A program made the position numbers and the translations under genes. Below the pieces are notes generated by a model, which was not told the origin of the DNA, did no database searches, and saw only the letters and a list, made by a program, of their open reading frames with translations. This document shows, piece after piece, positions 48,736 through 63,999 of a stretch of 64,000 nucleotides of DNA (its first letter is position 1; each line of letters opens with the position of its first letter). Location: the NCBI GenBank assembly GCA_963713705.1, contig CAVQMY010000054.1:52314-116313 (forward strand). Direction: 5' to 3'. The DNA is from an uncultured Verrucomicrobiae bacterium (GTDB lineage Bacteria; Verrucomicrobiota; Verrucomicrobiia; Palsa-1439).

Positions 48736-49318
48736 TGGGATTTATGAAGTGTGAAATTGAGGCTGGGGCACTGCTACAGCCAACGGTCGTGCAGAAGCCC
48801 GACCCTCCGAGCGGAAACGACGGCAAGCCTACAACTCGGAGGGGATTGGCGGCGGATTAGGGGTCGAGGCGTCCACCATTGAAAAAAGACTAGACAGTCT
48901 ACATATGATTGTGTATAGTCGGAGTGGTTTGGAGTTGCTCTTTGACATAGTGGACTAGAGGGCAGGGGAAACGACAGAGATCCCTCGACAAGCTCGGGAT
49001 GACACCGTTGGGAAGGGAAGCTGCGGGCCGGACGACCGGTCCGCGGTCAACGCCCGCGGCTACCCTTCGGCAAGCTCAGGGCAGGCAGGGGGAAAGGGGC
49101 GACGCGAAAGGGTGTTTTTGCGAAACGAACCCAAGCCTATCGAATGGAAAATGCGTCTGAATGAGCTTGTGGGACTGGTGGTTAGAGCTTTTCGATTTGG
49201 GATTTTTGGTTGGGTTCGTCCCCCCTCCGGTTGGGTTCGGTAGACGGGGGTCCGGCAGGGGTTTGTGACCGATTTGACCCTCAAAATGCGCCAAGATGGG
49301 TTGTGCGCCTCGGGCGCG

Positions 49319-50698
49319 TTAACCCGCCGGAGGCGGGTGAGTCTCGTAGCCCAGTTTTTGGAAGTGCTGGAGCTTGTAGAGGAGGGCGCGGCGGCTGATG
49401 CCGAGGGCTTTGGCGGTTTCGGTGCGGTTGAAGTCGTGGTTTGCGAAGCGCCTGGAGGATGGCCTGGCGCTCGACTTCTTCGAGTTGCTCGGCGTTGCCT
49501 GATGCGGCGGTGCCGGGTCGGCCGGCGGCCTCGCGAACGCGCGCGGGCAGGTGCTCGGGCAGAATCAGTTCGCTGCGGGAAAGCAGCACGGCCCGTTCCA
49601 TCGCGTTGCGCAGTTCGCGGACGTTGCCCGGCCAGGAATAGCCCTCGAGGCAGGCCGTGACCGTCTCCGAAAACCGCGCGCGGCCCTTGGCGAATTCCGC
49701 AATGAACAAGCCCGCCAGCGGCAGGATGTCCTCGCGCCGCTCGCGCAACGGCGGAACGTTCAGCTCCACCACGTTCAGCCGGTAGAACAGGTCCTCGCGG
49801 AACCGGCCGTTTTTGACCTCCTCCTCGAGGTTGCGATTGCTGGCGGCGAGGATGCGGGCGTTGGTCCGGATTTCGCGGTTGGAGCCGACGCGCTGAAACC
49901 GTCCGTCCTGGGTCACGCGCAGCAGCTTGGCCTGGAGCTGCGGGGACATCTCGGCGATTTCATCGAGAAAAATCGTGCCGTCGTTCGCTTCCTCAAAACG
50001 GCCGATGCGCTGGGCGTGCGCGCCGGTGAACGAGCCGCTTTCGTGCCCGAACAATTCGCTTTCCAGCAGCGTTTCGGGGATGGCGGCGCAATTGACCTTG
50101 ACCAGCGGGCCGGCGCGCGCGTGCTCCAGGCATGAATGACATCGGCCAGCACTTCCTTGCCGACGCCGCTTTCGCCGGTGATCAGCACGCGCGTTTCCGA
50201 CGGCGCGACCAGCGAGACGTCGCGAAACACGGCCTGCATCAGCGGGCTGTTGGCGACGACGTGCGCGGGCAATTGGCGGTCCTCGTCGTAGCGCAGCGGG
50301 GTGGACTTGGAGATGCCGGTGGCTTGCTGCACCGACGCGAGCAATTCATCCAGATCAATCGGCTTGGCGAGATAATTGACCGCGCCGTCGCGCATGGCGC
50401 CGACGGCTTCGCGAATGTCGGCATAGGCGGTGACGAGCAGGACCGGCAGGGTGGCGTTGATCTGGCGCGCGCGGCGCAGCGTTTCCAGACCGGTCAGGCC
50501 CGGCATCCGCACGTCGGAAATCATCATGGCGATGTTGCCGTCGCGCAGCATTTCCAGGGCGCGCTCGCCCGATTCCACGACCGTGGTTTGAAACCCCTGG
50601 CTCCGCAAAAATGAATCGAGCAGGCTGCGCTGGCCTGCATCATCATCCACAATCAGGATGCGCACCGTTGGTTCGGTGCCCGATGCCGGTGTTTTCAA
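49319..50698 (-). pseudogene. NtrC-family sigma54-dependent response regulator (REC-AAA+-HTH) with two frame changes
   Basis: REC: RILIVDDDAGQRS...MMISDVRMPG...AKPIDL. AAA+: [19 protein letters not shown] then a shift in an AGCACGCGCGCGCC tract (~50125) to ...[29 protein letters not shown]...[17 protein letters not shown]...[11 protein letters not shown] second shift at ~49460 leads to [27 protein letters not shown]...*, with the stop at 49319. Confidence 0.8.
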
Positions 50699-52243
50699 TT
50701 CTTTCCCGCGAGTTTTAAATGTGCCACACGGAAGATAGCACCTTTCGGCTCGTTGGGAAGGCATTCAATTTCCCAGCCGTGGGCGTGCACGATCTGCTGG
50801 ACGACCGTCAGTCCCAGCCCGGTTCCCTTGGGCTGCGTGGTGAAATACGGCTTGAAGATTTCCTTGCGGCGGTCGGCTGGCACGCCCGGCCCGTTGTCGC
50901 GAATCTCCAGCACGGCCTCCGAGGCATTCGGGCGCGCCATGACGATTTGAATGACGCCGCCGGGCGTCGACGGCTTGAATGGCGTTGAGGAGCAGATTGA
51001 ACAGCGCCTGGCGCAGCAATTGTTCGTCCGCCTCGATCGAGAGCGACTCGCCCTTGATTTCGACCTGGACACGTTTCTCCTCAATATCGTACCCCAACGC
51101 GCGAACCACTTCACTCACCGCCGACGAAAGCGCCAGTGGGGAGCGCCGCACTTCGCGGGGCCGGGAATAATTGATGAATTCATTGAGCTGCACCGTGACT
51201 TTGTCGGTTTCGTCCACGATGGCGCGCGATTTCTCACGGATTTCCGCTGGCGCGTCGGCTTGTTTGGAAATCATCTGCGCCAGTCCGCGGATGATGTTGA
51301 GCGGGTTGCGCGTTTCGTGAGCGAGGCCGGCCGCCGCGAGATTCATTTCCTTGAGATGGGTGGTCAATTCACTGGCGCGCACCAGCCGGAGTTGGAGATC
51401 GGAAGACGTGGTGAGGTTGCGCCAGGCCAGTCCCGAGCCGACAGCCGAGACGGTGGCCAGCAATCCGATGATGCATCGCAACCAGAGATCTTGTCGGCTT
51501 GCGGCCAGCACGGGTTGGGTGGACATAACAATAACAAAGCTGCGCACACCCTGCTTTTGAAGCATCGCGTTGTAAACTTCCTCGCTCATCCACGGGGGGC
51601 GACCAAGCCGTGGCCGGCCCGAACCGCCGCGGAACCACGGCCAGTTCGTGGAAGAACCGGATGGCGGCGGTTCCGCAGCCTCATTCGTCGCCGTGGGGGC
51701 ACGGTTCGATTCCTCTTCGGGTGGTGGAGGCCCCGGCGGTGGCTCTGGTGGCGGACCGCCAGCGACCCGGTTGGTATCGGACGGACGGAAAAACTCGTCT
51801 CGGGTCAAAACAATCGGCGGGCGGCTACTCTCGATGTCTCTGGTTACGTTTGTCCCGAGGTCCACGAGGTTCATCAAGGTGACCGTTTGTTCGTCCCAGC
51901 GCTCGGCGGGTCCCTCGACACCTTTTGTTTGGAAATCGGCGAGCATTCCGGCTGAGGCCACGACGTCTCCGGCGGCATTGAGGAGGGCGATCCCGTTTAG
52001 TTCACCGGGCCTGACCAGATCGTGGAGCGCGGATTCCAACCGCTCCTTGGAAAGGACCCCAAAACGACGTTGCGACCGAAGCACGATGCCGAGCGTGGTG
52101 GAAATGTCCTGGGCCCGGTAGATCAACTGCGCCCGCGCGGCGCGGCGCACACGGAAATGCTCGGCCGTCTGCCAGGCCAACACCAAGACCCACGCGGCCA
52201 GCAGTAATCCATAGATCAACGTGCTGCGGCGGCCTATGTCCAT
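50695..52243 (-). pseudogene. Sensor histidine kinase with one frame change between the N and G boxes (~50970)
   Basis: Two TM segments flank a Pro-rich periplasmic region. H box AAAGLAHETRNPLN. ...LRQALFNLLLNAIQAV then shifts to ...PGGVIQIVMARPNASEAVLEIRDNGPGVP...FKPYFTTQPKGTGLGLTVV (ORF 50695..51114). Confidence 0.8.
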
Positions 52244-52266: not shown

Positions 52267-53535
52267 TTATTGAACCGTGGCGGAGGAGATCGACTTTCCG
52301 CCCTTCGATTGCTTTTTCGGCATCTTGTCGAGAAATCTATCCAATTCCTGCTCGGAATACGACTTGGGAATCAAAGAACGCGCCCTTTCCGTGGCGGAGA
52401 GCGCAACCAGTTGCGTCGGAGCCTGGACCACGTACGGCGTCAGGAAAATCAAGAGTTCCTGACGAGAGTTGCTGGCGACCCTCCGCTTGAAAACATTCCC
52501 GAGAAACGGAATGTCCCCCAAGATGGGAATTTTCTGCTCGGAGGAAGACTTGTCGCGCTCCATCAGGCCGCCGATGACAACGGTTTGCCCGCTGGGAGTG
52601 ATGGCCACGGTGTTGGCGGAAACCGTGTCAATGACCGGAGCGTTGACCCCCTGGGCGATGGGAACCGTTAGCGTTGGGTCAATGGATGAGTCCTGCGGCG
52701 CAACGATCATCTGGACCATGCCATCGCTGGTAATGTACGGTGTCACCGTCAGAATAATTCCCACGTCCGTGTACGTGACGGAGTTGATGGGAGCGCCGGA
52801 GATCGAGTTGTAGCTCACGCTGGTGATCAAGGGAACATATTGTCCTACCACGACACTGGCCGGCTGATTGTTCCGCGCCAGAATGGAAGGACGAGAAAGC
52901 ACCTCGGCTTTTCCCGTCGCGGCAATGGCCCGCAGTGTCGCCTGAAAATCGTTTCCGAGGATTTGGTACATCCCAGCGCCCGCACCCGCCGTAAAGGGCG
53001 CGATGGCCGAAAAACTCTGGATGGGCATCCCAAAAACATTCGACACGGGTGCGTTGGAACCCGTGCCGGAACCGAGGCTGGACAGTCCAAATGAATTAGC
53101 TACCGCCCCCGTCATCGATGCGCCGATTCCTCTCATCCAGCCACCTTCCACGCCGATGTCCGTTGCGTCGCTATGCGTAACCTGCAAAAAGACGACTTTG
53201 ATCAGGACCTGGGGTTGTGGACGGTCCAAGTTGGAAATGACGGCGCTGATATTTCGGGTGGTATCATCGTCGGCCAGGATCGTAATGTTGTGCGTATCCG
53301 GGTCGTACGAAATCGTGGCGTTGCCCACCGTGCCGTTGCCGTTGTATTGCTGGCTGCCGGTGGTTGTGCCGCTACGGTTGGCGCCCCCCCCCCCGCCCCC
53401 AAACCCGCCAAAACCACCGCCCGCACCGGCGGGGCGTTGCGCCTGCTGTTGGGCGTGGATTTCACTTGACGCGCACAAACAAAGACCAAGAATGAGCGCG
53501 AGTCGACATTTCGATTTCAAGAATTTGGTATTCAT
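52267..53535 (-). CDS. gspD: Secretin-domain outer-membrane protein (one N3-like domain plus secretin core) with its own signal peptide
   Basis: MNTKFLKSKCRLALILGLCLCASSEIHA; Gly-rich linker; ISYDPDTHNITILADDDTTRNISAVISNLD; secretin core ...LSRPSILARNNQPASVVVGQYVPL...VTYTDVGIILTVTPYITSDGMVQM...VVIGGLMERDKSSSEQKIPILGDIPFLGNVFK...ELLIFLTPYVV. Confidence 0.85.
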   Translation of the reverse strand: MNTKFLKSKCRLALILGLCLCASSEIHAQQQAQRPAGAGGGFGGFGGGGGGANRSGTTTGSQQYNGNGTVGNATISYDPDTHNITILADDDTTRNISAVISNLDRPQPQVLIKVVFLQVTHSDATDIGVEGGWMRGIGASMTGAVANSFGLSSLGSGTGSNAPVSNVFGMPIQSFSAIAPFTAGAGAGMYQILGNDFQATLRAIAATGKAEVLSRPSILARNNQPASVVVGQYVPLITSVSYNSISGAPINSVTYTDVGIILTVTPYITSDGMVQMIVAPQDSSIDPTLTVPIAQGVNAPVIDTVSANTVAITPSGQTVVIGGLMERDKSSSEQKIPILGDIPFLGNVFKRRVASNSRQELLIFLTPYVVQAPTQLVALSATERARSLIPKSYSEQELDRFLDKMPKKQSKGGKSISSATVQ

Positions 53536-53573
53536 AGGTTCCTTGCGATTACATGCTTGGTGTTACACGTTCG

Positions 53574-54989
53574 TTAGAACGAAGTTCCTCCGAGTCCGCT
53601 ACGCGACGATGATCCCAGGCTCGAGCTTCCCAGTCCCGAGCTGGAGGTCGTGCTGCCGGTATTCTGTTGAATCCGACTCTGCAGCGGACTGACCTGTGTC
53701 TGGCTGCTCTTCGTTGAGTTCTGACTCTGGAACATGTCTTGCAATACCGACTCCACTTGCTGCGGATCGGCGTTTTCCAGATGAACGACGCTCACGTGTG
53801 GCACCCTCGGCGAATCCTGATCGAGTTGCTCGACCATGCTCGCGATTTGTTCCATCATGTCTTTCGACGCGGTGACCGCCACGGAGGACGTGCGCGGATC
53901 GGCCACGGCAACGACCTCTTGCCGCTTCTTGATGCGGGCCGCCTGACCGTTGGCGGGCGTGCTGGCCGCGGCGCTGGCCGCCGCCGCACGTGCAGCAAAC
54001 CCACCGAAACCGCCTCCGCCAAAACCGCCGCCGGGGCCACCAAACCGTATCGGGGTCTGGCTGCCGCTCGTATTGCTCTGTCCGGAGAACAATCCCGTCA
54101 ACAGGCTGGCGATCTCCACCGGGTCATGGTGTTTCAAATGAAACACCCGCAATTCGGTCTCGTCCTCGGCGCTCGAATCGATCGCCTTGATGATCTCCAC
54201 CAGATGCCGAATATTGGCCTGGGTATCGGTCACGGCGATGGAATTACCGGCTTCATTGGCAACGATCGTCGCGTGCGAGGACACCATCGGCGACAGGTCC
54301 TTCACGAGTTGCTCCGCTTCCACGAAACGGATGGGAATGATTTGCGTGACGATTTCGTCGTTCTTCGGAATGGCGTCCGGGTTGTTGCCGGTTTTGACCG
54401 GGATGTCGCCGTGGATCGCCTCGTCCTTGCTCACGATGGTCAGCGTCCGCCCGTTTCGAATGGCGGCGTATCCATTCTTGTTCAGCATGGAGTTCAACAA
54501 ATCAACCGCCTCGTCCTTGGTTACGGGATGGGTGCTCCACACATCCACTTTGCCCTTTACGGGAGTATCCACTTCGATAATGAAGCCCGCTGCGTCGCTG
54601 AGATAACTCAACACCAGATCGATTGGCGCGTTGTGAAAATTCAAGTACAACCCCTTCCCAACGCCTGTGTCCTCGGGTGTGGATGCGGACGAAGACACGC
54701 CCTGCTCCCCGGCGGCATTGGGTTCCGTGGTGGCGGATGAATTCCCCGTCGCGGGCTCGGGTTGGATGGGTGCCGGGGAAGTCGCCATGCCCTGGTCCGC
54801 TTCTGCGGCCTGTGTTTCCTCTGGTTGCGGCGCGGCGGCCGAGGGCTCTGCCTGGACGGGCACGCTGTTGCTCACGGTGTCGGCTGGCTGTGGTTCGGGA
54901 GCCGGCGACTGCCCGGTTTGCGCGCGCGTCGTTAGCACAATCCCGAAAGCACAACTGGTGGCCAGAATTCGAAAAATAACGGTTCTCAT
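53574..54989 (-). CDS. Secretin N-domain protein (N0/N1/N2-like repeats) lacking a secretin core
   Basis: Signal peptide MRTVIFRILATSCAFGIVLTTRAQ. ...LNFHNAPIDLVLSYLSDAAGFIIEVD..., ...IIPIRFVEAEQLVKDLSPMVS..ATIVANEAGNSIAVTDTQANIRHLVEIIKAID..., ...RVFHLKHHDPVEIASLLTGLF... It ends in a Ser/Gly-rich tail with its own stop, 38 nt before the next gene. Confidence 0.75.
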   Translation of the reverse strand: MRTVIFRILATSCAFGIVLTTRAQTGQSPAPEPQPADTVSNSVPVQAEPSAAAPQPEETQAAEADQGMATSPAPIQPEPATGNSSATTEPNAAGEQGVSSSASTPEDTGVGKGLYLNFHNAPIDLVLSYLSDAAGFIIEVDTPVKGKVDVWSTHPVTKDEAVDLLNSMLNKNGYAAIRNGRTLTIVSKDEAIHGDIPVKTGNNPDAIPKNDEIVTQIIPIRFVEAEQLVKDLSPMVSSHATIVANEAGNSIAVTDTQANIRHLVEIIKAIDSSAEDETELRVFHLKHHDPVEIASLLTGLFSGQSNTSGSQTPIRFGGPGGGFGGGGFGGFAARAAAASAAASTPANGQAARIKKRQEVVAVADPRTSSVAVTASKDMMEQIASMVEQLDQDSPRVPHVSVVHLENADPQQVESVLQDMFQSQNSTKSSQTQVSPLQSRIQQNTGSTTSSSGLGSSSLGSSSRSGLGGTSF

Positions 54990-55576
54990 TGTAACTCCTG
55001 TTCTCTCTGTTTCATCAGCCGCTTGAGGACATCGTTGCCCCCGCTGTCGGAATCGCTGGCCGCCGTCTCGGTTGGCGCCACATCCGCGTTCTCCGTCGTC
55101 TCGACTGGCAATTCACTCGTGGCCGCCAACTGCCAGGCCCCTTTTTCTTCGCGCCGCATTTGTGTCCCGACCTTCATCACCAACTGCTTGTCGCCATTCG
55201 CCAGTTTCACGGCCGTTGGCGTGATGTTGGTCACCTTGTAACCGGCGATCGTGCCGGCGTTTTGCACGACCCTCCGGTAGTCGGAACTTGTGCCGTCAAA
55301 AAACGCGAACGTGCCCTTGGCGTAGCTCATCGTGCCGACGAGTGAAAACGCATCCGCCACCGGTTGCGGCCGATTCCCATGCTTATGTCGTGCGGTCCGG
55401 TTCGGGTTGAAAATATTCCTCTCGCTAATGACCTGGAAATTGGAGAAGTCCACCTGGCTCGTGCGGTTCGTCTGCTGGGCTCGGGCGGCGAAGTCCCCGG
55501 CCATCACCAGCGCCGCAATCGCGAGAATCTTGCACACGCGAGTCTTTCTTCCGATGGTTGTTGGCTTCCGGTTCAT
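54986..55576 (-). CDS. PilP/GspC-like periplasmic T2SS component
   Basis: From ATG 55576: MNRKPTTIGRKTRVCKILAIAALVMAG... then ...FSLVGTMSYAKGTFAFFDGTSSDYRRVVQNAGTIAGYKVTNITPTAVKLANGDKQLVMKVG (HR/PilP-like beta domain). The start overlaps the upstream stop (ATGA). Confidence 0.5.
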   Translation of the reverse strand: MNRKPTTIGRKTRVCKILAIAALVMAGDFAARAQQTNRTSQVDFSNFQVISERNIFNPNRTARHKHGNRPQPVADAFSLVGTMSYAKGTFAFFDGTSSDYRRVVQNAGTIAGYKVTNITPTAVKLANGDKQLVMKVGTQMRREEKGAWQLAATSELPVETTENADVAPTETAASDSDSGGNDVLKRLMKQREQELQ

Positions 55577-56106
55577 TGGGTTTGTGGTGTCAATACAAGG
55601 CCGCTCACTTCCAGCGCCAAGCTCAACTGCTGGCCGATGGTGTCGTGCGAGCTCAACTCTGCCGACACCACCTTCAAGGCCATCGGCCCCTTTTCGACCG
55701 CGTACAAAAATTGCGCCAGCGTCGTCATGTCGCCCGTGGCGTCCACCCGACACTCCAGCGTCATGTAGTCGTCCGCGTCGTGTTTCCATTGAGGCGTGAT
55801 TGACGTAACGCTCACCCGGCTCTGTTGTGACCACGTATCAACTGCCTTGAGCATCTGCTGCTCGGCCAGCGAGGCGTTGTTCGTCAGCGTGTTCGTCCGC
55901 ATTTCATCCCAGCGACGGCGAATAAGCTGTTCCCGCTGCAGTAACGACGACCCCTGAGCGATCTCCTGGTGGAGTTCGGCGATTCCTTTGGATCGTGCCT
56001 GCCAGAGATGCGTCAGCGGCGTGAACACAAACCAGTCGGAAATCAAGAGCCCGAGACCGGAAATGGCGAGGATCGCCAGGAGTCGTTGGCGCTGGTTAAT
56101 TCGCAC
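55573..56106 (-). CDS. gspM: GspM/PilO-like inner-membrane T2SS component
   Basis: GTG 56106 is preceded by GGAGG. It has a single TM segment (LLAILAISGLGLLISDWFVF), a coiled coil and a ferredoxin-like C-terminus. The call rests on position in the operon. Confidence 0.5.
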   Translation of the reverse strand: MRINQRQRLLAILAISGLGLLISDWFVFTPLTHLWQARSKGIAELHQEIAQGSSLLQREQLIRRRWDEMRTNTLTNNASLAEQQMLKAVDTWSQQSRVSVTSITPQWKHDADDYMTLECRVDATGDMTTLAQFLYAVEKGPMALKVVSAELSSHDTIGQQLSLALEVSGLVLTPQTQ

Positions 56107-57553
56107 TGCCGCCTCCTTGGCCCCACTGAAAATCAAACGTGAATTGCATCGGGGATTTGCCACGAATCTGGTCCACCTTTAGGGCGGTCACTCCGCTCGT
56201 GGAGCGCAACTGGGTCAGCGTCCTCAATAATACGGCATTGTCCCGCGCCGTACCCGAACAAGTCACCGTGTTGGCGTCGCGGATTTCCACGGTCTTGGCT
56301 GAGACAACCCCGTCCTCGGGAAATGCCAGCGTCAGCTCGCGCAGCACGCTCAAACTGGGGAATGACCGGTCAAACCAGGGGCGATACTGCCGGATCTGTT
56401 GTTGCAAGCCGTCGAGTTCTTCCACTTTTTGTGACATCGCCCCCCAGCGTGAGCGCAACCAGGTGAGTTGCCATTGTTGAATCAAAAACAGTCCCACCAC
56501 CAGGAGCGCCACCGCGCCCGTGGTAGCGCCCGCCATGCGAAGCCGGCTGGAAGAATAGCGTGCCGCGAGTTGCTGCCACGGCGCAATTTTAGGCGGCAGG
56601 AATTCAAATGGCGCAGCCTGACGCGTCAGATAACGCGCTCCGAAACTGAATGCCCGGGAAACCGTTGCCCCCGCAGGAAGCTCGACGCCAAATTCTCCCG
56701 GCGAATACGCGGTGACCAATTCCATGGTCAATCCCATCGCGGCCAGGGGCGCCTCGATTTCGTTGGCCAGTTCCCCGGCAAGATCCGCCGGGCCAAAGAG
56801 ACTGACGCCGCGGATGGTTTCGCGGAATTCCGACGGCAGTTGCCCGAGGGTGATGCGCACTTCGCGCGCGACAACGTCGGAATGGAGAAGCTTGCGAGTG
56901 CCTTCAATTTCCAGTGCGCCTTCCAACGCCCGCAATGCGCCCACTCCGCCGCCGCAGGTGACTTGCAAATCAATGTTGTCTTCGCCAATGGCCAGTGCCA
57001 ATGCGCCGTCGGCAGACCCGACGCGGGGTGGTCGGAGGGCGGTGATACCGAGAGAGAAACTGACCGCCTTTAATCGGGCCCCCAGAAGGACCCGCTCCAG
57101 CAGAGCGAGGTGGTTCTCGGGAATCCCAATCAGGGTTGCGTACAGCTTTCCGGACGGCGCCTGCCATCGCGAGGTGGCCAACCGCAACGTGGCGACGTCG
57201 CAGGGGAATCCGCGCTCCGCTTCGATTTGCAGGAAGCTGGCCACGTCCGCCTCGGGCAACTCGGGTAATTCGACATGCACGACCAGCGCCCACTTCAGCG
57301 GCACACAGACAACGCAGTGCCGCTCGCGCACGCCGGCGGCATCCAAATGATTCCGAATTTCTCGACCTACGAGTTCGGAATCCGCCGTCAATGGATCGAG
57401 GGATAACGCCTCGGAAAACGACTGCAGCGCCTGGAGCGACCCGTTGGTGCGCCGCAACACAACGCCGTCCAAACGATCGCCATCCAGCGACAAGGCCAAC
57501 ACGGACGAGTGGCCCTGCCGCTTCCACGACTTCCAATTACGCCAATCCATCAT
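56096..57553 (-). CDS. gspL: GspL-like (PilM-type actin-like domain + TM + PilN-like periplasmic domain)
   Basis: ATGATG at 57553 is preceded by GGAGG. ...VLALSLDGDRLDGVVL... (actin-like fold start), a TM segment (GATTGAVALLVVGLFLI) and a C-terminal periplasmic domain. Confidence 0.6.
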   Translation of the reverse strand: MMDWRNWKSWKRQGHSSVLALSLDGDRLDGVVLRRTNGSLQALQSFSEALSLDPLTADSELVGREIRNHLDAAGVRERHCVVCVPLKWALVVHVELPELPEADVASFLQIEAERGFPCDVATLRLATSRWQAPSGKLYATLIGIPENHLALLERVLLGARLKAVSFSLGITALRPPRVGSADGALALAIGEDNIDLQVTCGGGVGALRALEGALEIEGTRKLLHSDVVAREVRITLGQLPSEFRETIRGVSLFGPADLAGELANEIEAPLAAMGLTMELVTAYSPGEFGVELPAGATVSRAFSFGARYLTRQAAPFEFLPPKIAPWQQLAARYSSSRLRMAGATTGAVALLVVGLFLIQQWQLTWLRSRWGAMSQKVEELDGLQQQIRQYRPWFDRSFPSLSVLRELTLAFPEDGVVSAKTVEIRDANTVTCSGTARDNAVLLRTLTQLRSTSGVTALKVDQIRGKSPMQFTFDFQWGQGGGSAN

Positions 57554-58935
57554 GACGCCTCCTTGCCCAGCGTCGACTGGCGGACATCCTGGCCGAGCGC
57601 CCAACCGAGACGGGTAAGGTCCTGTCGATAGAGGACCCTTGCCGTGCCGTCACTGATGTCGAATATGAATTTGACCCGACGATAACCTCGTCCATACTGG
57701 CCCACCGCTGCGATATCTGCCGCAAATTGAAAACTTCGCGTGGTAATGTAATCGCCACTTTCCAGACCCTGGATTGCCGCGCTACCTCTTCCCAGTGCAT
57801 CCACAATCCAAGCGATCGTCCCAAGATTGTTGGGATTGGACTGCCGGTAGCTAACGGCTTGCTGCGCGCTACCCAGATCCATACCGGGAAGGCAGGACAA
57901 CACGGTCACGCTGGCGGTATTGATGTTCACGCGTCCCGGCGTGTAAGCAGTCGTGCCGACGGCGAGATCGGGATAAATTTCCGCAAACTCGGTTTCGCTC
58001 AACCCGCTACGCAGGTAAAATTGCAACAATCCATTCAGCGTGGCGGCGGTCCCTCTCGCGGGGGCGTTCGTCCTCGTACCCGTTCCTCCAACAGTCGGGA
58101 GCAGTCGGCTGAGAATTTGCGTGGCGCGTCCACCCCCAAAATTACTCTGCAACAGTGTTCGGAGTTGCGCCGGGTTGTTGATGTTGGTGAGTGCGGTGCC
58201 GTCGCTATGCGAGTTCGGCTCGCGGCTGTAAACCGTAAGATATTCAATAATCCCGGGGTCAACCTGTCCGTTGCCGTCTTCGTCCGGCTCGCTCGGATCC
58301 AAAACCCCGTTGCGATTCAGGTCGTCGCCGACAAGGATGTCCATCGTCGTTCCATACACCAGCCGCACTTCGTCAACGGTCTCAAACGGGGCGCCTTTGC
58401 GTTGATAGGGCGGTTGCGCCATCGCGTAGTAGAGTTCCGTCCCGCCGTTGCTGTTCGGGTTACGCCAATCGAGGATCCCGTTGACCACGTCCGATGTCAC
58501 CCGCGGCAGCATCCCGAGAGTGTTCGTCGGGGCCGTGTTAAGGTTCAGCTTCGATGACTCGTCCACCAAGCCGAAGGTCACCTGATTGGGGTGCAGCGGG
58601 GGATAGCTGTTGTCCCGTCCGATGATCCAAAAGTGCGCGCCTCCGACCGGCACGTCTTCCGCCTGATACTCGGTGAGGTCGGGCATGACCCCGTTCGTGG
58701 CATACGTGGTGAGGACGTACCCGACATATCGCGCCGCGCCTTCAATAGCTTGGTCAGCTGCGACAGCGCTCGCACGATTGTCCGATGCCCGCAACTCCAT
58801 GGCCATCGAGTGCGCGAAATACAACGCGATGCTGACCAATCCAAGCGTGACCCAGAGGACAATGACCAACACCGATCCTCCGCGGGAATCGGCGGCTTGC
58901 GTTTGACCAACGTGTTGTAGGCAGCAACGCTTCAT
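57550..58935 (-). CDS. gspK: Type II secretion minor pseudopilin GspK
   Basis: ...GSVLVIVLWVTLGLVSIALYFAHSM...ASDNRASAVAADQAIEGAARY...GLVDESSKLNLNTAP... followed by helix-hairpin-helix-like repeats. Confidence 0.75.
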   Translation of the reverse strand: MKRCCLQHVGQTQAADSRGGSVLVIVLWVTLGLVSIALYFAHSMAMELRASDNRASAVAADQAIEGAARYVGYVLTTYATNGVMPDLTEYQAEDVPVGGAHFWIIGRDNSYPPLHPNQVTFGLVDESSKLNLNTAPTNTLGMLPRVTSDVVNGILDWRNPNSNGGTELYYAMAQPPYQRKGAPFETVDEVRLVYGTTMDILVGDDLNRNGVLDPSEPDEDGNGQVDPGIIEYLTVYSREPNSHSDGTALTNINNPAQLRTLLQSNFGGGRATQILSRLLPTVGGTGTRTNAPARGTAATLNGLLQFYLRSGLSETEFAEIYPDLAVGTTAYTPGRVNINTASVTVLSCLPGMDLGSAQQAVSYRQSNPNNLGTIAWIVDALGRGSAAIQGLESGDYITTRSFQFAADIAAVGQYGRGYRRVKFIFDISDGTARVLYRQDLTRLGWALGQDVRQSTLGKEAS

Positions 58936-58940
58936 GTCAT

Positions 58941-59663
58941 TCAGCTTCCGGCAGTTGGTACCTGGTTGGTGCGCGATTGAGAATCAATCGGAACCGTCAA
59001 AACGATCGGTTGCCTGGCGCGCGGGTCGCCGGGGCCTTCTCCCGCCAATTGAATGGTGACGCGGACGGCAATTGGCAAATTGGTGTCGGACACGGTCGTA
59101 TCCCAGGAATTGCGCCATTGCGTGCCGTCGTAACAATCGAATGTCAGGCTTTGCACGCGGCCCAGCATCCATTGGTCTTCGGGCACCGGAGTGATCGTCG
59201 CGAGGAGATTCCGGGTGATGCTGCGGACCAAATCCTGGCCCTGGTTTCCGTCGCCACTGGCCGCTGGACGGAGCTCATAAGTAACACACTGGACATCCCC
59301 CCACGGCTCGTTTTCATGGAGCGCGCCGGTGGTGGTGTACAACTCAATGGACACATTCTGATTCATAGCGGCGCTGGTGATGTCCCCCACCCGAAAATCG
59401 CCCGTCATCACGCCGTTGGTTGTCGGCGACATCGCCGACTGCAAATCATTGCGCATCGTGGCGAGCGCCAGTTGCGCAGGCTCGGATTCATCCACTGCCC
59501 GAATCGTGGCTTCGCGCAGACGCAACGCGCCAAAGAACACGCCGTTGATCGCGGCCAATGCGATGGCACAAACCCCCATGGCCAACATCAACTCCACCAG
59601 GGTAAATCCCCCCTTGTGGCCGGGTAGGCGGCGATATGGTTGTGCCGGACGGTTCATTTTCAT
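58941..59663 (-). CDS. gspJ: Minor pseudopilin (GspJ-like)
   Basis: From ATG 59663: MKMNRPAQPYRRLPGHKGGFTLVELMLAMGVCAIALAAINGVFF... (prepilin-type N-terminus). The start overlaps the upstream stop (ATGA). Confidence 0.6.
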   Translation of the reverse strand: MKMNRPAQPYRRLPGHKGGFTLVELMLAMGVCAIALAAINGVFFGALRLREATIRAVDESEPAQLALATMRNDLQSAMSPTTNGVMTGDFRVGDITSAAMNQNVSIELYTTTGALHENEPWGDVQCVTYELRPAASGDGNQGQDLVRSITRNLLATITPVPEDQWMLGRVQSLTFDCYDGTQWRNSWDTTVSDTNLPIAVRVTIQLAGEGPGDPRARQPIVLTVPIDSQSRTNQVPTAGS

Positions 59664-60070
59664 TGCTGCGGCAAGTTCACCAATGTGCTCAGACGCGTCG
59701 AATACGCCCGGTCGCGCGAGGTAAAGGTCACTTCCATGGTCAGGAGTTGCATCGAATCCTGTGGCCAAAGCGCGCTATGCAACTTCCACTGGTAGTCGTG
59801 TCCACCCTCTTGAACGGTCCCGTTCTGAGCGGTGACTCCCCCCGTGGTCGTCGTCACGGCGATCTCGTTCAGTTCGCGTTCGGCCACTCGCACGGCTTCC
59901 GCCTTGTGGACGGCAAGTTCGCCCGCCGCGCTAGCGATGCGCAAGCCATCGACCGCCACCGGAACCACGATGGCCATGAACGCCAGCGCCGCCAACACCT
60001 CGGCGAGCGTGAAGCCGGCCTCCGCGCACCGTTGGGATGGCTTCCTAGCGATTGATGTTTTGAATGGCAT
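59660..60070 (-). CDS. gspI: Minor pseudopilin (GspI-like)
   Basis: ...AEAGFTLAEVLAALAFMAIVVPVAVDGL...; 136 aa; called from its position in the operon. Confidence 0.6.
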   Translation of the reverse strand: MPFKTSIARKPSQRCAEAGFTLAEVLAALAFMAIVVPVAVDGLRIASAAGELAVHKAEAVRVAERELNEIAVTTTTGGVTAQNGTVQEGGHDYQWKLHSALWPQDSMQLLTMEVTFTSRDRAYSTRLSTLVNLPQQ

Positions 60071-60584
60071 AGGTCATGTGATTGGTTTGTTCGACCAACC
60101 AAAGAAGTGTTCCGTCCGCCCCCGCGAGACGCAGCGTCGATGGACTGGAATCGTCAATCGTCCCGTCGGGCAAAAACCGGACTGCGGGCAATTTCCGTCC
60201 ACCAACCGAAATCGGCGCGGCGTTGACCGCGTCCACCTGCAGGCCGTCCGCAACAGTGAAATCTTCGGCCCGCGGATCACCCGTGCGGGACGCATTCTCC
60301 AACTCCAGTCCATACGCGTTCTGTGACGAATCGATCCACAACAGCGCGGGTGCCCCCTCGGAGACCGCCCGGCTTTGCCCCGCGCGTGTCAGGGACAACA
60401 ACCGTCGCGCCTCCGAATCCAGCGTACGCCCCCGGAAAAAGCGGGACAGCACCGGCGCCGTCACGGAAATCGCGACAACCAGCAGCGCCATGACAAGGAC
60501 CAATTCGATCAAGGTAAACCCACCGCGGCGGGTAAATGCCGGTTGAAGGTTTTGTTTGTCACGTTGTTTGGTCCGTCGACTCAT
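60045..60584 (-). CDS. gspH: Minor pseudopilin (GspH-like)
   Basis: ...RRGGFTLIELVLVMALLVVAISVTAPVLSRFFRGRTLDSEARRLLSL... Confidence 0.6.
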   Translation of the reverse strand: MSRRTKQRDKQNLQPAFTRRGGFTLIELVLVMALLVVAISVTAPVLSRFFRGRTLDSEARRLLSLTRAGQSRAVSEGAPALLWIDSSQNAYGLELENASRTGDPRAEDFTVADGLQVDAVNAAPISVGGRKLPAVRFLPDGTIDDSSPSTLRLAGADGTLLWLVEQTNHMTYAIQNINR

Positions 60585-61033
60585 CTTCGGAGCGTCCAAT
60601 TGCAGATGTCGTCGTCGGTGCCGAACCGACCGTCCGGTCCCGCCGACGATATATCGTAGAAACTGGGGTTATGCTTACCGGGGCACTCATACTGATAATC
60701 GTTGCCCCACGGATCTTTGGGAATCGAGTCGCTTTGGAGGTACGGCCCGTGCCAGTTGGCGCCGTCGCGCGGCTGCTGGATCAGGTCCACCAGACCGTTT
60801 CGGCCCTTCGGATAATACCCCATGTCCACTTCAAATGCGTCGAGGGCCGTCTTGAACGTGGAAATTTGCGTGGCCGCCGCCGTCACCCGGCCGCGCTGGG
60901 ACACGCCGGAGAATTTCGGGAGAACGATGGCCGCCAGCGTGCCGAGAATGACCAGCACGAGCAGCAATTCGACCAGGGTAAACGCGTGTTGCTCCCGGTG
61001 AACGCGAGTGAATGTGCGAGAAATGTTCTTCAT
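60581..61033 (-). CDS. gspG: Type II secretion major pseudopilin GspG
   Basis: ...QHAFTLVELLLVLVILGTLAAIVLPKF...AATQISTFKTALDAFEVDMGYYP...NWHGPYLQ...KDPWGNDYQYECPGKHNPSFYDISSAGPDGRFGTDDDICNW. Confidence 0.9.
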   Translation of the reverse strand: MKNISRTFTRVHREQHAFTLVELLLVLVILGTLAAIVLPKFSGVSQRGRVTAAATQISTFKTALDAFEVDMGYYPKGRNGLVDLIQQPRDGANWHGPYLQSDSIPKDPWGNDYQYECPGKHNPSFYDISSAGPDGRFGTDDDICNWTLRR

Positions 61034-61046
61034 AATAGTGTGGGGG

Positions 61047-62292
61047 TTATTTGATGTATTGTTGCAAGGTGAAGATCGGTAGCAGCATCCCGATGAAGAT
61101 GGTGCCGATGAATCCCGCGATGAGAAACAGCATCAGCGGTTCCGCAAAGGCAACCGCGGTTTTCAATTGCCGGTCCAGATCGCCCTCGGTCACGTTCGCG
61201 ACCCGGACCAATTCCGTGTCCAACCGTCCGCTTTCCTCGGCGACGGAAATCATTTCCAGCACGGAACTGGGAAACAACCCGCGGCACTCCGCCAGGCTTT
61301 GCCCGAGGCGCTCGCCTTCCTGTACGCGCTCGATGGACGTGGCAACTGCGTCGACAAGAATCTGGTTGCCGATGGATTTCCGCGCGACGTTCAGTCCCTG
61401 CACGAGGGGCACGCCGGCGCCGAGCAGTGTGCCCAGCATCCGGCAAAAGCGCGCCATGGCAAACTCCGCGACCAGTGGCCCCACCATCGGCAGGCGCAGG
61501 ATCGTTCCCTCCCAGACGCGGCGTCCCTTTTCCGAGGCGAACCAATTGCGGATCATGAACGCGCCCGTGGCGAGGCCGGCGAGGACGAACAATCCATACG
61601 AGCGCACGATGTGACTGGCGGCAATGATCATCTGCGTCAGCAGCGGGAGCGAACCACCAAATCCCTGGAATAGTTTCTGGAAGTTGGGGATGAAATACAC
61701 GAGCAGAAACGTCAACACCCCGAGTGCGAGCACGAGGAGGATGGTCGGATACAACATGGCGCTCGTCACCTTCGACCGCAGTTCCTTTTCGCGTGATTGA
61801 AAATCGGCGATCTGAGCCAGCACCACGTCCAGAAAGCCACCCGTCTCACCGGCTTGCACCATGGCCACGTACACACGCGGGAAAACGTCCGGCGACTTGG
61901 CCATCGCTTCCGCCAGCGGCATGCCGTCAATCACCAGGTCGTGGATCTCCTTCCATTTCGCCGCCGCGGCCGGCGTGGAGGCTTCCGAGTAGAGGATGAC
62001 GAGTGCCCGGCTCGAACGACACGCCGGCGGCCAGCAAACTGGACAGCAGCCGCGTGAAATTTTCCAATGCCTTTGCGGACACGCGCTGCGACTGAAGCTT
62101 AAACGAAAAATCTCCGAGGTTGCCGAGGCTGGGACCGGCCTTTTTCTCGGTCGTTGCACCTTCTGAAAGACTGACCGGGCGCAACCCGAGTCCCTCCATT
62201 TGGCGAAACGCGTCGGGCCGCCCTGAGGCCTCCAACTGACCTTCGGCGACAGCGCCATCGGTCTGCAATGCTTTGTATCGAAACGTGGGCAT
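61047..62292 (-). pseudogene. gspF: Type II secretion inner-membrane platform protein GspF with one frame change near 62015 (or an assembly indel)
   Basis: ORF 61927..62292 reads MPTFRYKALQTDGAVAEGQLEA...ALENFTRLLSSLLAAGV. It continues in the ORF 61047..62258 frame as ...SRALVILYSEASTP...GMPLAEAMAKSPDVFPRVYVAMVQAGETGG... with the second GspF repeat to the C-terminus. Confidence 0.8.
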
Positions 62293-62301
62293 GGTTGTGA
62301 A

Positions 62302-63999
62302 TTATCCTGCGGCCTGGCTCGCCGCCGGAGCCGGGTTCGGTGATTCTTGTTTGGTTGTGCGGGCCACTTCCTTGGCGGTGGTCACGCTCAACACTTCCTC
62401 GACGGTCGTGATCCCCCGCGCCACCAGACGCCAGCCGTCTTCGGCCAGCGTACGCATTCCGGCGCGGCGGGCGGTGTCGCGTATCTGGTCCGTGGATGCG
62501 CTCTTGAGGATCAATTGCCGGATGTTTTCGTCGGTGTCCATCCATTCAAAAATCCCGTGGCGACCGAAAAAGCCCGTGTTACGGCATTCGCGGCAACCAA
62601 CCGAGCGATAAATCGCCACGTTGGCGGGTATCCCCAAGCTTGCCTTGAAAGCCTGAGCGGTCGGCGAACGGTCTTCCTGTTTGCAGTGGGCACACAGGAC
62701 GCGTACGAGACGCTGCGCGAGCACCGCTTCCAGCGACGAGGCGACGAGATACGGCTCGACCCCCATGTCCACGAGACGGGTCAATGCCCCGGGGGCATCA
62801 TTGGTGTGCAGTGTGGAAAACACCAAGTGGCCGGTCAAGGATGCTTGCACGGCGATTTGAGCCGTCTCCTGATCGCGGATTTCGCCTATGAGAATGACAT
62901 CGGGATCGTGACGCAGAATCGAACGTAGACCGCGGGCAAAGGTCAGCCCGGCCTTCTCCGAAACCTGGATCTGGTTGACGCCTTTGAGCTGATATTCGAT
63001 CGGGTCTTCGATGGTGATGATTTTACGGAGGGCGTCGTTGATTTCATTCAGCGCGGTGTACAGCGTCGAGGTCTTGCCGCTACCCGTCGGGCCCGTGACC
63101 AGAATGATTCCATGCGGCAACTGGAGGATTCGTCGAAAGCTCTTGAGTTCACGTTCTTCCATGTCCAGTTCGCCCATTCCGCGCAGGGTCGCGTTCTGAC
63201 GGAGCAATCGCATGACGACCGCTTCGCCATGCAGCATCGGGATGACGGAGACACGGATGTCGACTTCGCTTTCATCGATGCGGATTTTGATGCGACCGTC
63301 CTGAGGCAGGCGTTTTTCCGCGATGTTGAGATGACTCAGGATTTTGACGCGCGAGACGATGGCGGGCTGGAAACGTTTGAGCTGCGCGGGGACGGGGATT
63401 TCCTGCAACACGCCGTCGATGCGGTACCGAATGCGGAATTCGTCTTCGAACGGTTCGAGATGGATGTCCGAGGCCCGCAAATCGATGGCGTCGCGCAACA
63501 CCTGGTTGACAAAGTGAATGATGGAGGCTTCGTCTTCGGCGGCGGCATCGAGGTTGGTGTCGTCAATGTTGTCATCGACGACCTGAAACGATTTCTCCTC
63601 GTGCAACGTATCGATGGTGTCGGCGCCGACGCCGAGATGTTTCTTGATTTCGCGCTGGATCGCTTCCATCGATGCGAGAACGGGTTTGAGACTCAGCCCG
63701 GTGAGCGTCTTCAGCGAGTCGAGTCCCTGGGTGGCGAACAGGCGGCTGGTGGCAACCTCGGCGGAACCGTTCAACCGCCGCAACGGGAGCAGTTGCTCCT
63801 TGAGAAGGATACGGGCGGGAAAGAGTGAGAGAAGCTGGCGATCCGGTTCGATGTTTTCCAGGGTGGTATACGAGAGGCCGTATTCTTTGGCCAACCACTG
63901 CAAAACGTCTTCCTCGCTTTGCACAGTGTGCTTTGCGCGAACCAGAGCGTCCGCGTCAACAGCGGACAGTTGCTTTTCGGATACCATCCGCTCCAGCAA
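62302..63999 (-). CDS. gspE: Type II secretion ATPase GspE; the start may be ATG 63987 or lie beyond the window edge
   Basis: MshEN-like N-terminus; Walker A VTGPTGSGKTST; ...ITIEDPIEY..., ...DPDVILIGEIRD..., His box LVFSTLHTNDA; tetracysteine CAHC...CRECRNTG. Confidence 0.9.
   Translation of the reverse strand: MLERMVSEKQLSAVDADALVRAKHTVQSEEDVLQWLAKEYGLSYTTLENIEPDRQLLSLFPARILLKEQLLPLRRLNGSAEVATSRLFATQGLDSLKTLTGLSLKPVLASMEAIQREIKKHLGVGADTIDTLHEEKSFQVVDDNIDDTNLDAAAEDEASIIHFVNQVLRDAIDLRASDIHLEPFEDEFRIRYRIDGVLQEIPVPAQLKRFQPAIVSRVKILSHLNIAEKRLPQDGRIKIRIDESEVDIRVSVIPMLHGEAVVMRLLRQNATLRGMGELDMEERELKSFRRILQLPHGIILVTGPTGSGKTSTLYTALNEINDALRKIITIEDPIEYQLKGVNQIQVSEKAGLTFARGLRSILRHDPDVILIGEIRDQETAQIAVQASLTGHLVFSTLHTNDAPGALTRLVDMGVEPYLVASSLEAVLAQRLVRVLCAHCKQEDRSPTAQAFKASLGIPANVAIYRSVGCRECRNTGFFGRHGIFEWMDTDENIRQLILKSASTDQIRDTARRAGMRTLAEDGWRLVARGITTVEEVLSVTTAKEVARTTKQESPNPAPAASQAAG

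What the first reader, a model, noticed from the sequence alone, without database searches (positions are those of the whole stretch)
52267..54989. T2SS secretin split into two separately exported proteins
Canonical GspD/PilQ secretins are single polypeptides (N0-N1-N2-N3-secretin core). Here a 471-aa protein with its own signal peptide carries several N-domain repeats and ends in a Ser/Gly tail with a stop at 53574. After 38 nt containing an SD-like AAGGAAC, a 422-aa protein follows with a second bona fide signal peptide, one N3-like domain and the secretin core.

Both contain a similar Gly/Phe-rich linker (GGPGGGFGGGGFGGF vs GAGGGFGGFGGGGGG) directly before an N-domain. This suggests duplication of an N-domain-linker unit followed by fission. 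It is not a frameshift artefact, because the second gene has its own leader.
Basis: partly seen in the sequence, partly recalled or inferred. Interest (0 to 1): 0.65.

Follow-up and report, generated by a model that had tools for sequence, protein, structure and literature searches.

The report
T2SS secretin split inside N3
In this peat-soil Verrucomicrobiota bacterium and many relatives, the outer-membrane channel protein of the type II secretion system (GspD) is encoded as two adjacent genes, each with its own export signal, and the break falls in the middle of one small domain (N3), which probably has to be rebuilt from the two proteins in the periplasm.

Summary
On the minus strand, D1 (54989..53574, 471 aa) and D2 (53535..52267, 422 aa) close a complete T2SS operon. 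A TAA stop and a 38-nt gap with an SD-like site separate them.

Together they equal one canonical GspD. D1 covers positions 1-292 of NCBIfam TIGR02517 and D2 covers 280-599.

The split is not an artefact. In 77 of 77 species-level genome loci with an intact junction, D1 and D2 are separate adjacent ORFs. All three stop codons occur, gaps are 3-101 nt, and all three frame relations occur. Every D2 has an ATG and a signal peptide. Illumina contigs span the junction, and peat RNA maps to both genes.

The interpretation needs correction. There is no sign of a duplicated N-domain-linker unit, and D2 does not carry a whole N3. The break lies inside N3. D1 ends with beta1-alpha1 and D2 starts with beta2-beta3-alpha2. 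Each half scores below the Pfam cut-off, and the spliced pair scores 43 bits over the full profile. Both halves are conserved like whole domains. I infer that N3 is rebuilt in trans, which docks the N0-N2 protein under the pore.

Precedents are the split secretin of Rhc-type T3SS and mitochondrial GspD/GspDN. I found no description for a bacterial T2SS.

The parts
53574..54989 (-). D1: periplasmic N-terminal part of GspD (471 aa). Signal peptide, disordered P/A/E-rich linker, N0, N1, N2, first half of N3, S/G-rich tail ending in Phe.
   Evidence: ORF. Pfam N0 and Secretin_N. TIGR02517 positions 1-292, 183 bits. PDB GspD N0-N2. AF2 model.
54921..54989 (-). D1 signal peptide (aa 1-23, MRTVIFRILATSCAFGIVLTTRA|Q)
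   Evidence: Sequence. A23 and Q24 are invariant or nearly so in 46 homologs. Helix 2-22 in the model. No signal-peptide predictor was run.
54420..54644 (-). N0 domain (aa 116-190)
   Evidence: Pfam PF21305, E 3.6e-13. Aligns to N0 of 5wq7 and 5wln.
54165..54359 (-). N1 domain (aa 211-275)
   Evidence: Pfam Secretin_N positions 1-65 of 69, 46.2 bits, on the isolated fragment. beta-alpha-beta-beta-alpha in the model.
53817..54155 (-). N2 domain (aa 279-391), with a 54-aa G/F/A-rich insertion (aa 303-356, nt 53922-54083) in its alpha1-beta2 loop
   Evidence: Pfam Secretin_N positions 2-66 of 69, 51.6 bits, spanning 112 residues. The loop has pLDDT below 50. Related strains have a 24-nt in-frame length variant at 54024.
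53724..53801 (-). First half of N3 (beta1-alpha1; aa 397-422, PHVSVVHLENADPQQVESVLQDMFQS)
   Evidence: Alone it matches Secretin_N positions 1-38 of 69 at 20.2 bits, below the cut-off. D1 residues 361-427 align to V. cholerae GspD 204-270, which by my reading is the end of N2 plus the start of N3. Conservation 0.77, like whole domains.
53577..53723 (-). D1 tail (aa 423-471): low-complexity S/T/G-rich stretch with the conserved motif SPLQxRIQQN (aa 434-443, within nt 53661-53696) and a C-terminal Phe
   Evidence: Motif conservation 0.73 against 0.48 for its flanks. 94 of 120 homologs end in Phe. Role unknown.
53536..53573 (-). 38-nt intergenic gap after TAA (53576-53574), with the SD-like AAGGAAC at 53544-53538
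   Evidence: No terminator-like or promoter-like site in the gap. No unusual RNA structure, z 0.63. Gaps in relatives are 3-101 nt, median 28.
52267..53535 (-). D2: outer-membrane part of GspD (422 aa). Signal peptide, G/F-rich head, second half of N3, secretin core, C-terminal helices.
   Evidence: ORF. Pfam Secretin, E 2.3e-45. TIGR02517 positions 280-599, 216 bits. PDB XcpQ 274-582, E 1e-35. AF2 model.
53452..53535 (-). D2 signal peptide (aa 1-28, MNTKFLKSKCRLALILGLCLCASSEIHA|QQ)
   Evidence: Sequence. A28 and Q29 are invariant in 44 homologs. The same layout is present in 77 of 77 loci.
53323..53451 (-). Head of mature D2. G/F-rich low-complexity stretch (aa 29-62), which is the rest of the N3 alpha1-beta2 loop, then the conserved QYNxNGxVG (aa 63-71).
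   Evidence: pLDDT below 50 for residues 22-70. Conservation 0.52 for the G/F part and 0.81 for the motif. Related strains have a 9-nt in-frame length variant at 53413.
53218..53322 (-). Second half of N3 (beta2-beta3-alpha2; aa 72-106, NATISYDPDTHNITILADDDTTRNISAVISNLDRP)
   Evidence: Alone it matches Secretin_N positions 25-69 of 69 at 21.7 bits, below the cut-off. Spliced to the D1 half it matches 1-69 of 69 at 43.3 bits, E 4.3e-11. The model has E74-78, E83-87 and H90-104 only.
52423..53217 (-). Secretin core (aa 107-371), with a variable insert at aa 131-188
   Evidence: Pfam PF00263. Beta-barrel strands in the model.
52321..52422 (-). Conserved C-terminal helices (aa 372-405). Calling them S-domain-like is my inference from their position.
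   Evidence: H373-377, H381-388 and H393-404 in the model. Conservation 0.69.
54986..55576 (-). GspC-like gene directly upstream of D1. The likely true start is ATG 55576, giving 196 aa.
   Evidence: NCBIfam GspC_delta, weak: E 4.9e-5, 23 bits against a cut-off of 150. The same-size gene is at this position in L001. Start position.
55573..63999 (-). Rest of the T2SS operon upstream: gspM-like, gspL-like, gspK, J, I, H, G, F, E
   Evidence: Pfam and NCBIfam GspM. The listed gspE ORF starts at 63999, one base from the window end, so its true start is uncertain.

Best explanation
This is a functional two-gene GspD. An ancestral single gspD was cut within the long, disordered alpha1-beta2 loop of the N3 domain. 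The downstream piece acquired a ribosome-binding site, an ATG and a Sec signal peptide.

Shown here. The two genes lie at the end of one T2SS operon with no terminator-like site between them. Peat RNA maps to both. Together they contain exactly one set of GspD domains. D1 ends with only beta1-alpha1 of N3 and D2 begins with only beta2-beta3-alpha2 of N3. This layout is conserved across a large Verrucomicrobiota clade.

Inferred. Both proteins are exported separately by Sec and cleaved by signal peptidase I at A|Q. D2 oligomerises into the outer-membrane secretin pore. The C-terminal beta1-alpha1 of D1 inserts next to the beta2-beta3-alpha2 of D2, rebuilding a complete N3 ring-building domain in trans (fragment complementation). 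That hangs the N0-N1-N2 rings of D1 under the pore, where N0 can contact the GspC-like protein of the inner-membrane platform.
For: The operon is gspE-F-G-H-I-J-K-L-M-C-like-D1-D2. TIGR02517 is covered colinearly, at 1-292 (183 bits) plus 280-599 (216 bits); neither half alone reaches the 351-bit cut-off, and the summed score of 399 bits does. The D1 tail matches Secretin_N 1-38 (20.2 bits) and the D2 head matches 25-69 (21.7 bits). The spliced pair matches 1-69 at 43.3 bits, similar to N1 (46.2) and N2 (51.6). PDB alignments place the break in the same spot. The AF2 model of D2 has only strand-strand-helix before the barrel. The D1 model has an orphan helix after N2. The half-domains are conserved at 0.77 and 0.74, against 0.73-0.88 for whole domains and 0.48-0.62 for the low-complexity flanks. 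In 77 of 77 intact junctions D1 and D2 are separate. Stop codons are TAA 45, TGA 24, TAG 8. Gaps are 3-101 nt. Frame relations are 32/24/21. Every D2 has ATG plus a signal peptide. The break point is the same in relatives whose D1 is 34-38% identical (L084, L085). Independent Illumina contigs span the junction with only 3n or compensated indels, and peat metatranscriptome contigs map in both genes. No terminator-like or promoter-like site lies in the gap.
Against: Trans-complementation of N3 therefore rests on sequence logic and conservation only. The single-chain models have modest confidence (mean pLDDT 57-59), and the D1 half-domain scores about 54-65. Signal-peptide cleavage is judged by eye and by conservation. 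No protein-level evidence exists. No RNA contig spans the junction, so co-transcription is not directly shown. The conserved C-terminal Phe of D1 and the motifs SPLQxRIQQN and QYNxNGxVG are not explained by simple complementation.
Confidence: 0.72

Rival explanations
1. Artefact or pseudogene. A single gspD in this genome is broken by an assembly indel or by a recent nonsense or frameshift mutation.
For: The window does carry three 1-nt indels in the two genes just downstream, the histidine kinase and the sigma54 regulator. They lie at about 50965, 50114 and 49441 relative to related strains. Local sequence quality is therefore imperfect.
Against: The same split occurs in 77 of 77 intact junctions from different species-level genomes and in separate metagenome assemblies. 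D2 has its own conserved signal peptide, which a broken gene would not have. Illumina contigs spanning the junction show no frame-restoring indel. Homologs of each half have the half-size length: about 400-440 aa for D2 and about 410-540 aa for D1.
Confidence: 0.01
2. Recoding. Stop-codon read-through or programmed frameshifting produces a single fused GspD from the two ORFs.
For: In 32 of 77 loci D2 is in the same frame as D1.
Against: Frame relations are near-random (32/24/21). All three stop codons are used. Gap length varies from 3 to 101 nt. The window's D2 is in a different frame from D1. The junction RNA has no unusual structure (z 0.63). A fused product would carry a hydrophobic signal peptide in the middle of a periplasmic domain.
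Confidence: 0.02
3. Real split but no domain reconstitution. D1 and D2 are separate proteins, and the two N3 halves are vestigial or serve other contacts. D1 would act as an independent periplasmic adaptor ring, held by other interfaces: the N2 ring to the D2 gate region, the conserved tail motifs, or the C-terminal Phe docking elsewhere.
For: AF2 does not form the beta1 strand in D1 alone, and that segment has only moderate confidence. Conserved motifs outside the half-domains exist (SPLQxRIQQN, QYNxNGxVG, terminal Phe) and could mediate binding instead. In the Nat Commun 2021 paper, Y2H indicated that mitochondrial GspD and GspDN1 may interact, and that GspD lacks all N-domains.
Against: Both halves are conserved as strongly as complete domains, over a family that diverged to 34-38% identity. 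That is hard to reconcile with vestigial remnants. The spliced pair scores as a full-length, above-threshold Secretin_N domain. An isolated beta-alpha or beta-beta-alpha fragment would expose its hydrophobic core.
Confidence: 0.2
4. An N-domain-plus-linker unit was duplicated and the gene then split between domains, so that each product carries whole domains.
For: Similar G/F-rich stretches occur in both proteins.
Against: The domain count equals canonical GspD, and the equivalog profile is covered once and colinearly. D2 matches only profile positions 25-69 of Secretin_N, and D1 ends with positions 1-38. The G/F stretches sit at the equivalent intra-domain loops of N2 and N3. By my own hand alignment of the sequences printed, N2 and the spliced N3 are only about 25-38% identical. 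That does not suggest a recent duplication.
Confidence: 0.03

Closest known systems
Canonical T2SS secretin GspD (PulD, EpsD, XcpQ; e.g. PDB 5wq7, 5wq8, 5wln, 6hcg)
   Same: Same domain set and order (N0-N1-N2-N3-secretin core-C-terminal helices). Same operon context with gspC-M. The best sequence and fold matches of both halves are GspD proteins.
   Different: It is encoded as two genes with two signal peptides. The break lies inside N3. Long G/F-rich insertions sit in the alpha1-beta2 loops of N2 and N3. D1 has a roughly 85-aa disordered region after its signal peptide. Neither half alone reaches the GspD equivalog cut-off.
Split secretin of Rhc-type (rhizobial) T3SS: RhcC1 (NolW) and RhcC2, and HrcIIC1/HrcIIC2 of Pseudomonas syringae T3SS-2
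   Same: A secretin encoded as separate N-terminal and C-terminal genes, conserved across a family. The paper states that the functional significance is not known (PMC3574062).
   Different: It belongs to a different machine (T3SS SctC, not T2SS GspD). The two genes are separated by other genes or lie in different segments, not adjacent. Where that break falls relative to domain boundaries was not examined here.
Mitochondrial T2SS of some protists: GspD/GspDL plus GspDN1-3
   Same: A T2SS secretin distributed over several polypeptides. [quoted passage not shown]
   Different: Those proteins are eukaryotic, nuclear-encoded and highly diverged. The mitochondrial GspD lacks N0-N3 and part of the C-domain. 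No N0 and no GspC are present. Here the full N0-N3 set is kept with only one break. [quoted passage not shown]
Giant multi-N-domain secretins found among D1's relatives (e.g. P0247, 3423 aa)
   Same: They occupy the same last position in a T2SS operon of the same gene order. They have N0, Secretin_N domains and one Secretin domain.
   Different: They are single fused polypeptides with about 35 N-domains. Identity to D1 is only about 27-29% per repeat.

Membership tests
T2SS secretin GspD (NCBIfam TIGR02517 equivalog; Pfam N0 + Secretin_N x3 + Secretin) | Full-length match to the GspD equivalog profile above its cut-off (351.35 bits) in one protein | tested here: not met
   D1 scores 183.4 bits (profile 1-292) and D2 scores 216 bits (profile 280-599). 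Each is below the cut-off. Only the sum, 399 bits, exceeds it.
T2SS secretin GspD (NCBIfam TIGR02517 equivalog; Pfam N0 + Secretin_N x3 + Secretin) | Domain set N0, N1, N2, N3 and secretin core, in that order | tested here: met
   Met by the gene pair taken together. N3 is divided between the two products.
T2SS secretin GspD (NCBIfam TIGR02517 equivalog; Pfam N0 + Secretin_N x3 + Secretin) | Encoded in a T2SS gene cluster with gspE, F, G, pseudopilins, L, M and C | tested here: met
   Pfam and NCBIfam hits for gspE, F, G, H, I, J, K and M. The L-like and C-like genes match only weakly.
T2SS secretin GspD (NCBIfam TIGR02517 equivalog; Pfam N0 + Secretin_N x3 + Secretin) | Forms a multimeric (about 15-mer) outer-membrane pore that secretes folded proteins | not testable with these tools
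   This needs biochemistry or cryo-EM. No multimer prediction was available.
Split secretins (Rhc T3SS RhcC1/RhcC2 type) | Secretin N-terminal and C-terminal parts encoded by two conserved genes | tested here: met
   77 of 77 intact junctions. The precedent is described in PMC3574062.
Split secretins (Rhc T3SS RhcC1/RhcC2 type) | Homology to SctC and a T3SS gene context | tested here: not met
   The best family is GspD. The SctC model TIGR02516 scores only 33 bits (D1) and 125 bits (D2), against a cut-off of 238. The context is a T2SS.
Sec-dependent secreted proteins with a type I signal peptide (both D1 and D2) | N-terminal n-region, h-region and c-region with small residues at -1 and -3 of the cleavage site | tested here: inconclusive
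   Visible in the sequences (..TRA|Q and ..IHA|QQ) and conserved. No signal-peptide predictor or proteomics was available.

The most novel reading that the evidence does not exclude
The split may be a working design rather than a tolerated accident. The secretin's periplasmic vestibule (N0-N2) would be a separate subunit that plugs into the pore by completing the N3 domain in trans. Pore and vestibule could then be assembled, exchanged or uncoupled independently. This lineage would be the bacterial counterpart, and conceivably the ancestral state, of the half-N-domain proteins GspDN2 and GspDN3 of the mitochondrial T2SS.
Probability: 0.12. Interest if true: 0.8.

Novelty: new variant of a known kind. 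Interest (0 to 1): 0.6.

Why it matters
Secretins are treated as single-polypeptide channels. A 2023 review states this explicitly for the bacterial T2SS (PMC10128026). Here is a natural, widely conserved two-piece GspD cut through a ring-building domain.

It would give structural biologists a ready-made system for three questions: how the N3 ring nucleates pore assembly, whether a ring-building motif can be assembled from two chains, and how tightly the pore must be tied to the periplasmic rings.

It also gives a bacterial precedent for the puzzling half-N-domain proteins of the mitochondrial T2SS.

There is a practical consequence for annotation. Rules that require a full-length GspD hit will miss the secretin in these abundant soil and peat Verrucomicrobiota, so their T2SS may be scored as incomplete.

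Tried and rejected
1. **Co-folding.** I tried to co-fold the D1 C-terminal part with mature D2 as a concatenated, paired alignment.
2. **Search for a close fused ortholog.**
   - None appears among 120 D2 homologs or 120 D1 homologs.
   - None appears among the top 150 representatives at 50% clustering or the 80 genome loci.
   - The 869-894 aa relatives that looked fused are N-domain-only.
   - The only fused relatives seen are the giant 3-5.5 kaa secretins.
3. **Read-through or frameshifting.** Rejected from the frame, stop-codon and gap statistics and from the lack of RNA structure at the junction.
4. **Lipoprotein signal in D2.** The Cys residues in the h-region are not invariant and no lipobox fits. 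I judged this by eye only.
5. **Literature.** Six full-text searches found the Rhc T3SS and mitochondrial precedents. They found nothing on a split bacterial T2SS secretin. The library is incomplete, so this is not proof of absence.
6. **Taxonomy of distant N-only relatives.** The cluster look-up gave no organism names.
7. **Covariation between the two N3 halves.** I did not attempt this. The columns are too conserved and the pairs too related for a meaningful test.
Full report
**What is there.** Two ORFs lie head to tail on the minus strand. D1 is 54989..53574 (471 aa) and D2 is 53535..52267 (422 aa). D1 ends ...GLGGTSF with TAA at 53576-53574. A 38-nt gap follows, holding AAGGAAC at 53544-53538, and then the ATG of D2. 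The pair closes a complete T2SS operon: gspE, F, G, H, I, J, K, an L-like gene, gspM and a weakly GspC-like gene. A histidine kinase and a sigma54-type response regulator follow D2.

**The two genes add up to exactly one GspD.**
- Pfam finds N0 and Secretin_N in D1. In D2 it finds Secretin plus a partial Secretin_N covering profile positions 25-69 only.
- Against NCBIfam's GspD equivalog TIGR02517 (600 positions), D1 covers 1-292 at 183 bits and D2 covers 280-599 at 216 bits. Each falls below the 351-bit cut-off, and the sum clears it.
- D1 matches solved GspD/XcpQ N0-N1-N2 structures by sequence (E 8e-16) and by fold (E about 1e-13).
- D2 matches XcpQ residues 274-582 (E 1e-35).
- D1 is therefore not an unrelated periplasmic protein, and no domain is duplicated.

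**Where the break is.** The PDB alignments show that D1 residues 397-427 align to the first half (beta1-alpha1) of V. cholerae GspD N3. D2 residues about 66-106 align to the second half (beta2-beta3-alpha2) of XcpQ N3. I tested this directly with Pfam on fragments:

| Fragment | Secretin_N positions | Score |
|---|---|---|
| D1 tail alone | 1-38 of 69 | 20.2 bits, below the 28.2 cut-off |
| D2 head alone | 25-69 of 69 | 21.7 bits, below the cut-off |
| The two spliced together | 1-69 of 69 | 43.3 bits, E 4.3e-11 |
| N1, for comparison | 1-65 of 69 | 46.2 bits |
| N2, for comparison | 2-66 of 69 | 51.6 bits |

- The AF2 model of D2 shows a signal-peptide helix and a disordered stretch (22-70). 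Then come only strand 74-78, strand 83-87 and helix 90-104, followed by the barrel.
- The D1 model shows complete N0, N1 and N2. N2 has a disordered loop at 303-346. After N2 there is an orphan helix at 409-422 and a short helix at 435-444.
The gene was cut through the N3 loop.

**It is real and old.**
- D2 homologs (120 listed, 93-54% identity) are nearly all 395-445 aa.
- D1 homologs (120 listed) contain only N0 and Secretin_N. NCBI names them 'secretin N-terminal domain-containing protein'.
- A scan of one genome per species found at least 497 genomes with a D1 relative. The best 80 are almost all labelled Verrucomicrobiota (Verrucomicrobiia, Limisphaerales, 'subdivision 3'). A few bins carry other labels that look like mis-binning.
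- In all 77 loci with an intact junction, D1 and D2 are separate adjacent ORFs. Stop codons are TAA 45, TGA 24 and TAG 8. Gaps run from 3 to 101 nt (median 28). D2 is in frame 0, 1 or 2 relative to D1 in 32, 21 and 24 cases. Every D2 has ATG, a signal peptide ending ..A|Q and a G-rich head. This rules out an assembly artefact, a recent pseudogene and conserved read-through or frameshifting.
- Two much more distant loci have the same operon and the same kinase and regulator downstream. One of them is on a 6-Mb genome record. Their D1 is 34-38% identical to the window's D1. They have the same break, with beta1-alpha1 at the end of the N-only protein and beta2-beta3-alpha2 after the signal peptide of the secretin-only protein.
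- Among the 150 best representatives at 50% clustering, the non-giant hits I checked by Pfam, including the two longest (869 and 894 aa), are N-only. The others are too short (about 240-670 aa) to hold both parts.

**Read-level support.** Illumina contigs from peat and bog metagenomes span the junction. They differ from the window only by 3n indels in the low-complexity loops and by compensated +1/-1 pairs. Contigs of a peat metatranscriptome map inside both genes, though none spans the gap. No terminator-like or promoter-like site lies in the gap, and the junction RNA is not unusually structured.

**Selection on the halves.** Across 46 D1 and 44 D2 homologs, the mean top-residue frequency is 0.77 for the D1 half of N3 and 0.74 for the D2 half. 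Complete domains or their halves score 0.73-0.88, and the low-complexity flanks score 0.48-0.62. Both orphan halves are thus maintained like functional domains.

**How it most likely works.**
- Shown: one operon, two ORFs, one GspD domain set, a break inside N3, and conservation.
- Inferred: both products are exported by Sec. D2 forms the outer-membrane pore with an incomplete N3. The beta1-alpha1 of D1 completes that domain in trans, which attaches the N0-N1-N2 rings to the pore. N0 then contacts the GspC-like protein, as in canonical systems.
- The main rival is that the split is real but docking uses other surfaces. I give that about 0.2.
- Unexplained conserved features: the C-terminal Phe of D1 (94 of 120 homologs), the SPLQxRIQQN helix in the D1 tail, and QYNxNGxVG just before beta2 in D2.

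**Comparison with what is known.**
- Split secretins exist in Rhc-type T3SS (RhcC1/RhcC2), with significance 'not known' (PMC3574062).
- In the mitochondrial T2SS of some protists, GspD and GspDN1-3 are separate proteins. [quoted passage not shown]
- A 2023 review still describes the bacterial pore as 'an oligomer of a single polypeptide' (PMC10128026).
- Six literature searches found no description of a split bacterial T2SS secretin. The library is not complete.
- I therefore rate this a new variant of a known kind. It is not unique to this genome, and public annotation already calls the two proteins separately. As far as I could find, neither the intra-domain position of the break nor its breadth has been described.

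**Verdict.** Interest is 0.6.

Noticed in passing
window 49281-52243 (minus strand): The histidine kinase and the sigma54-type response regulator just downstream of D2 are each broken by frame shifts, at about 50965 (kinase) and at about 50114 and 49441 (regulator). Illumina contigs of related peat strains differ by 1-nt indels at exactly these three sites, and the orthologs in L001 are intact (520 and 440 aa). These are probably assembly indel errors in the window, or possibly strain-specific pseudogenes.
   Followed up: yes
P0243-P0387; P0247 in L086:8001-18272: Among D1's relatives are roughly 40 giant secretins of 3,000-5,500 aa, with 25-46 matched stretches each. P0247 (3,423 aa) has N0, about 35 Secretin_N domains and one Secretin domain. 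It sits as the last gene of a T2SS operon with the same gene order. What such a long periplasmic stack is for is unknown.
   Followed up: partly
window 53577-53723; D1 homologs P0121-P0240: The low-complexity D1 tail ends in a conserved aromatic residue. 94 of 120 homologs end in Phe, typically in ..TSF, ..PSF or ..SSF. The tail also holds the conserved motif SPLQxRIQQN, which the model predicts as a short helix. The role is unknown. The Phe is reminiscent of C-terminal recognition signals, but that was not tested.
   Followed up: partly
window 49281-52243; L001, L084, L085 (complete pair); L003 (variant): A histidine kinase followed directly by a sigma54-dependent response regulator sits after D2 in the window and in L001, L084 and L085. 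The last two have a D1 only 34-38% identical to the window's. In L003 the kinase also follows D2, but the regulator lies further on and is called as two genes. The conserved position suggests that this two-component system regulates the T2SS.
   Followed up: no
window 53922-54083 and 53350-53451: The G/F-rich loops of N2 and N3 vary in length between closely related strains by whole codons: +24 nt at 54024, +9 nt at 53413 and -3 nt at 53604. This is typical of repeat slippage in low-complexity coding sequence.
   Followed up: partly
L084:7001-9685: In one distant relative, on a 6-Mb genome record (OW818685.1), the N-only protein is 894 aa with five Secretin_N stretches. The number of periplasmic N-domains therefore varies within the split family.
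   Followed up: partly
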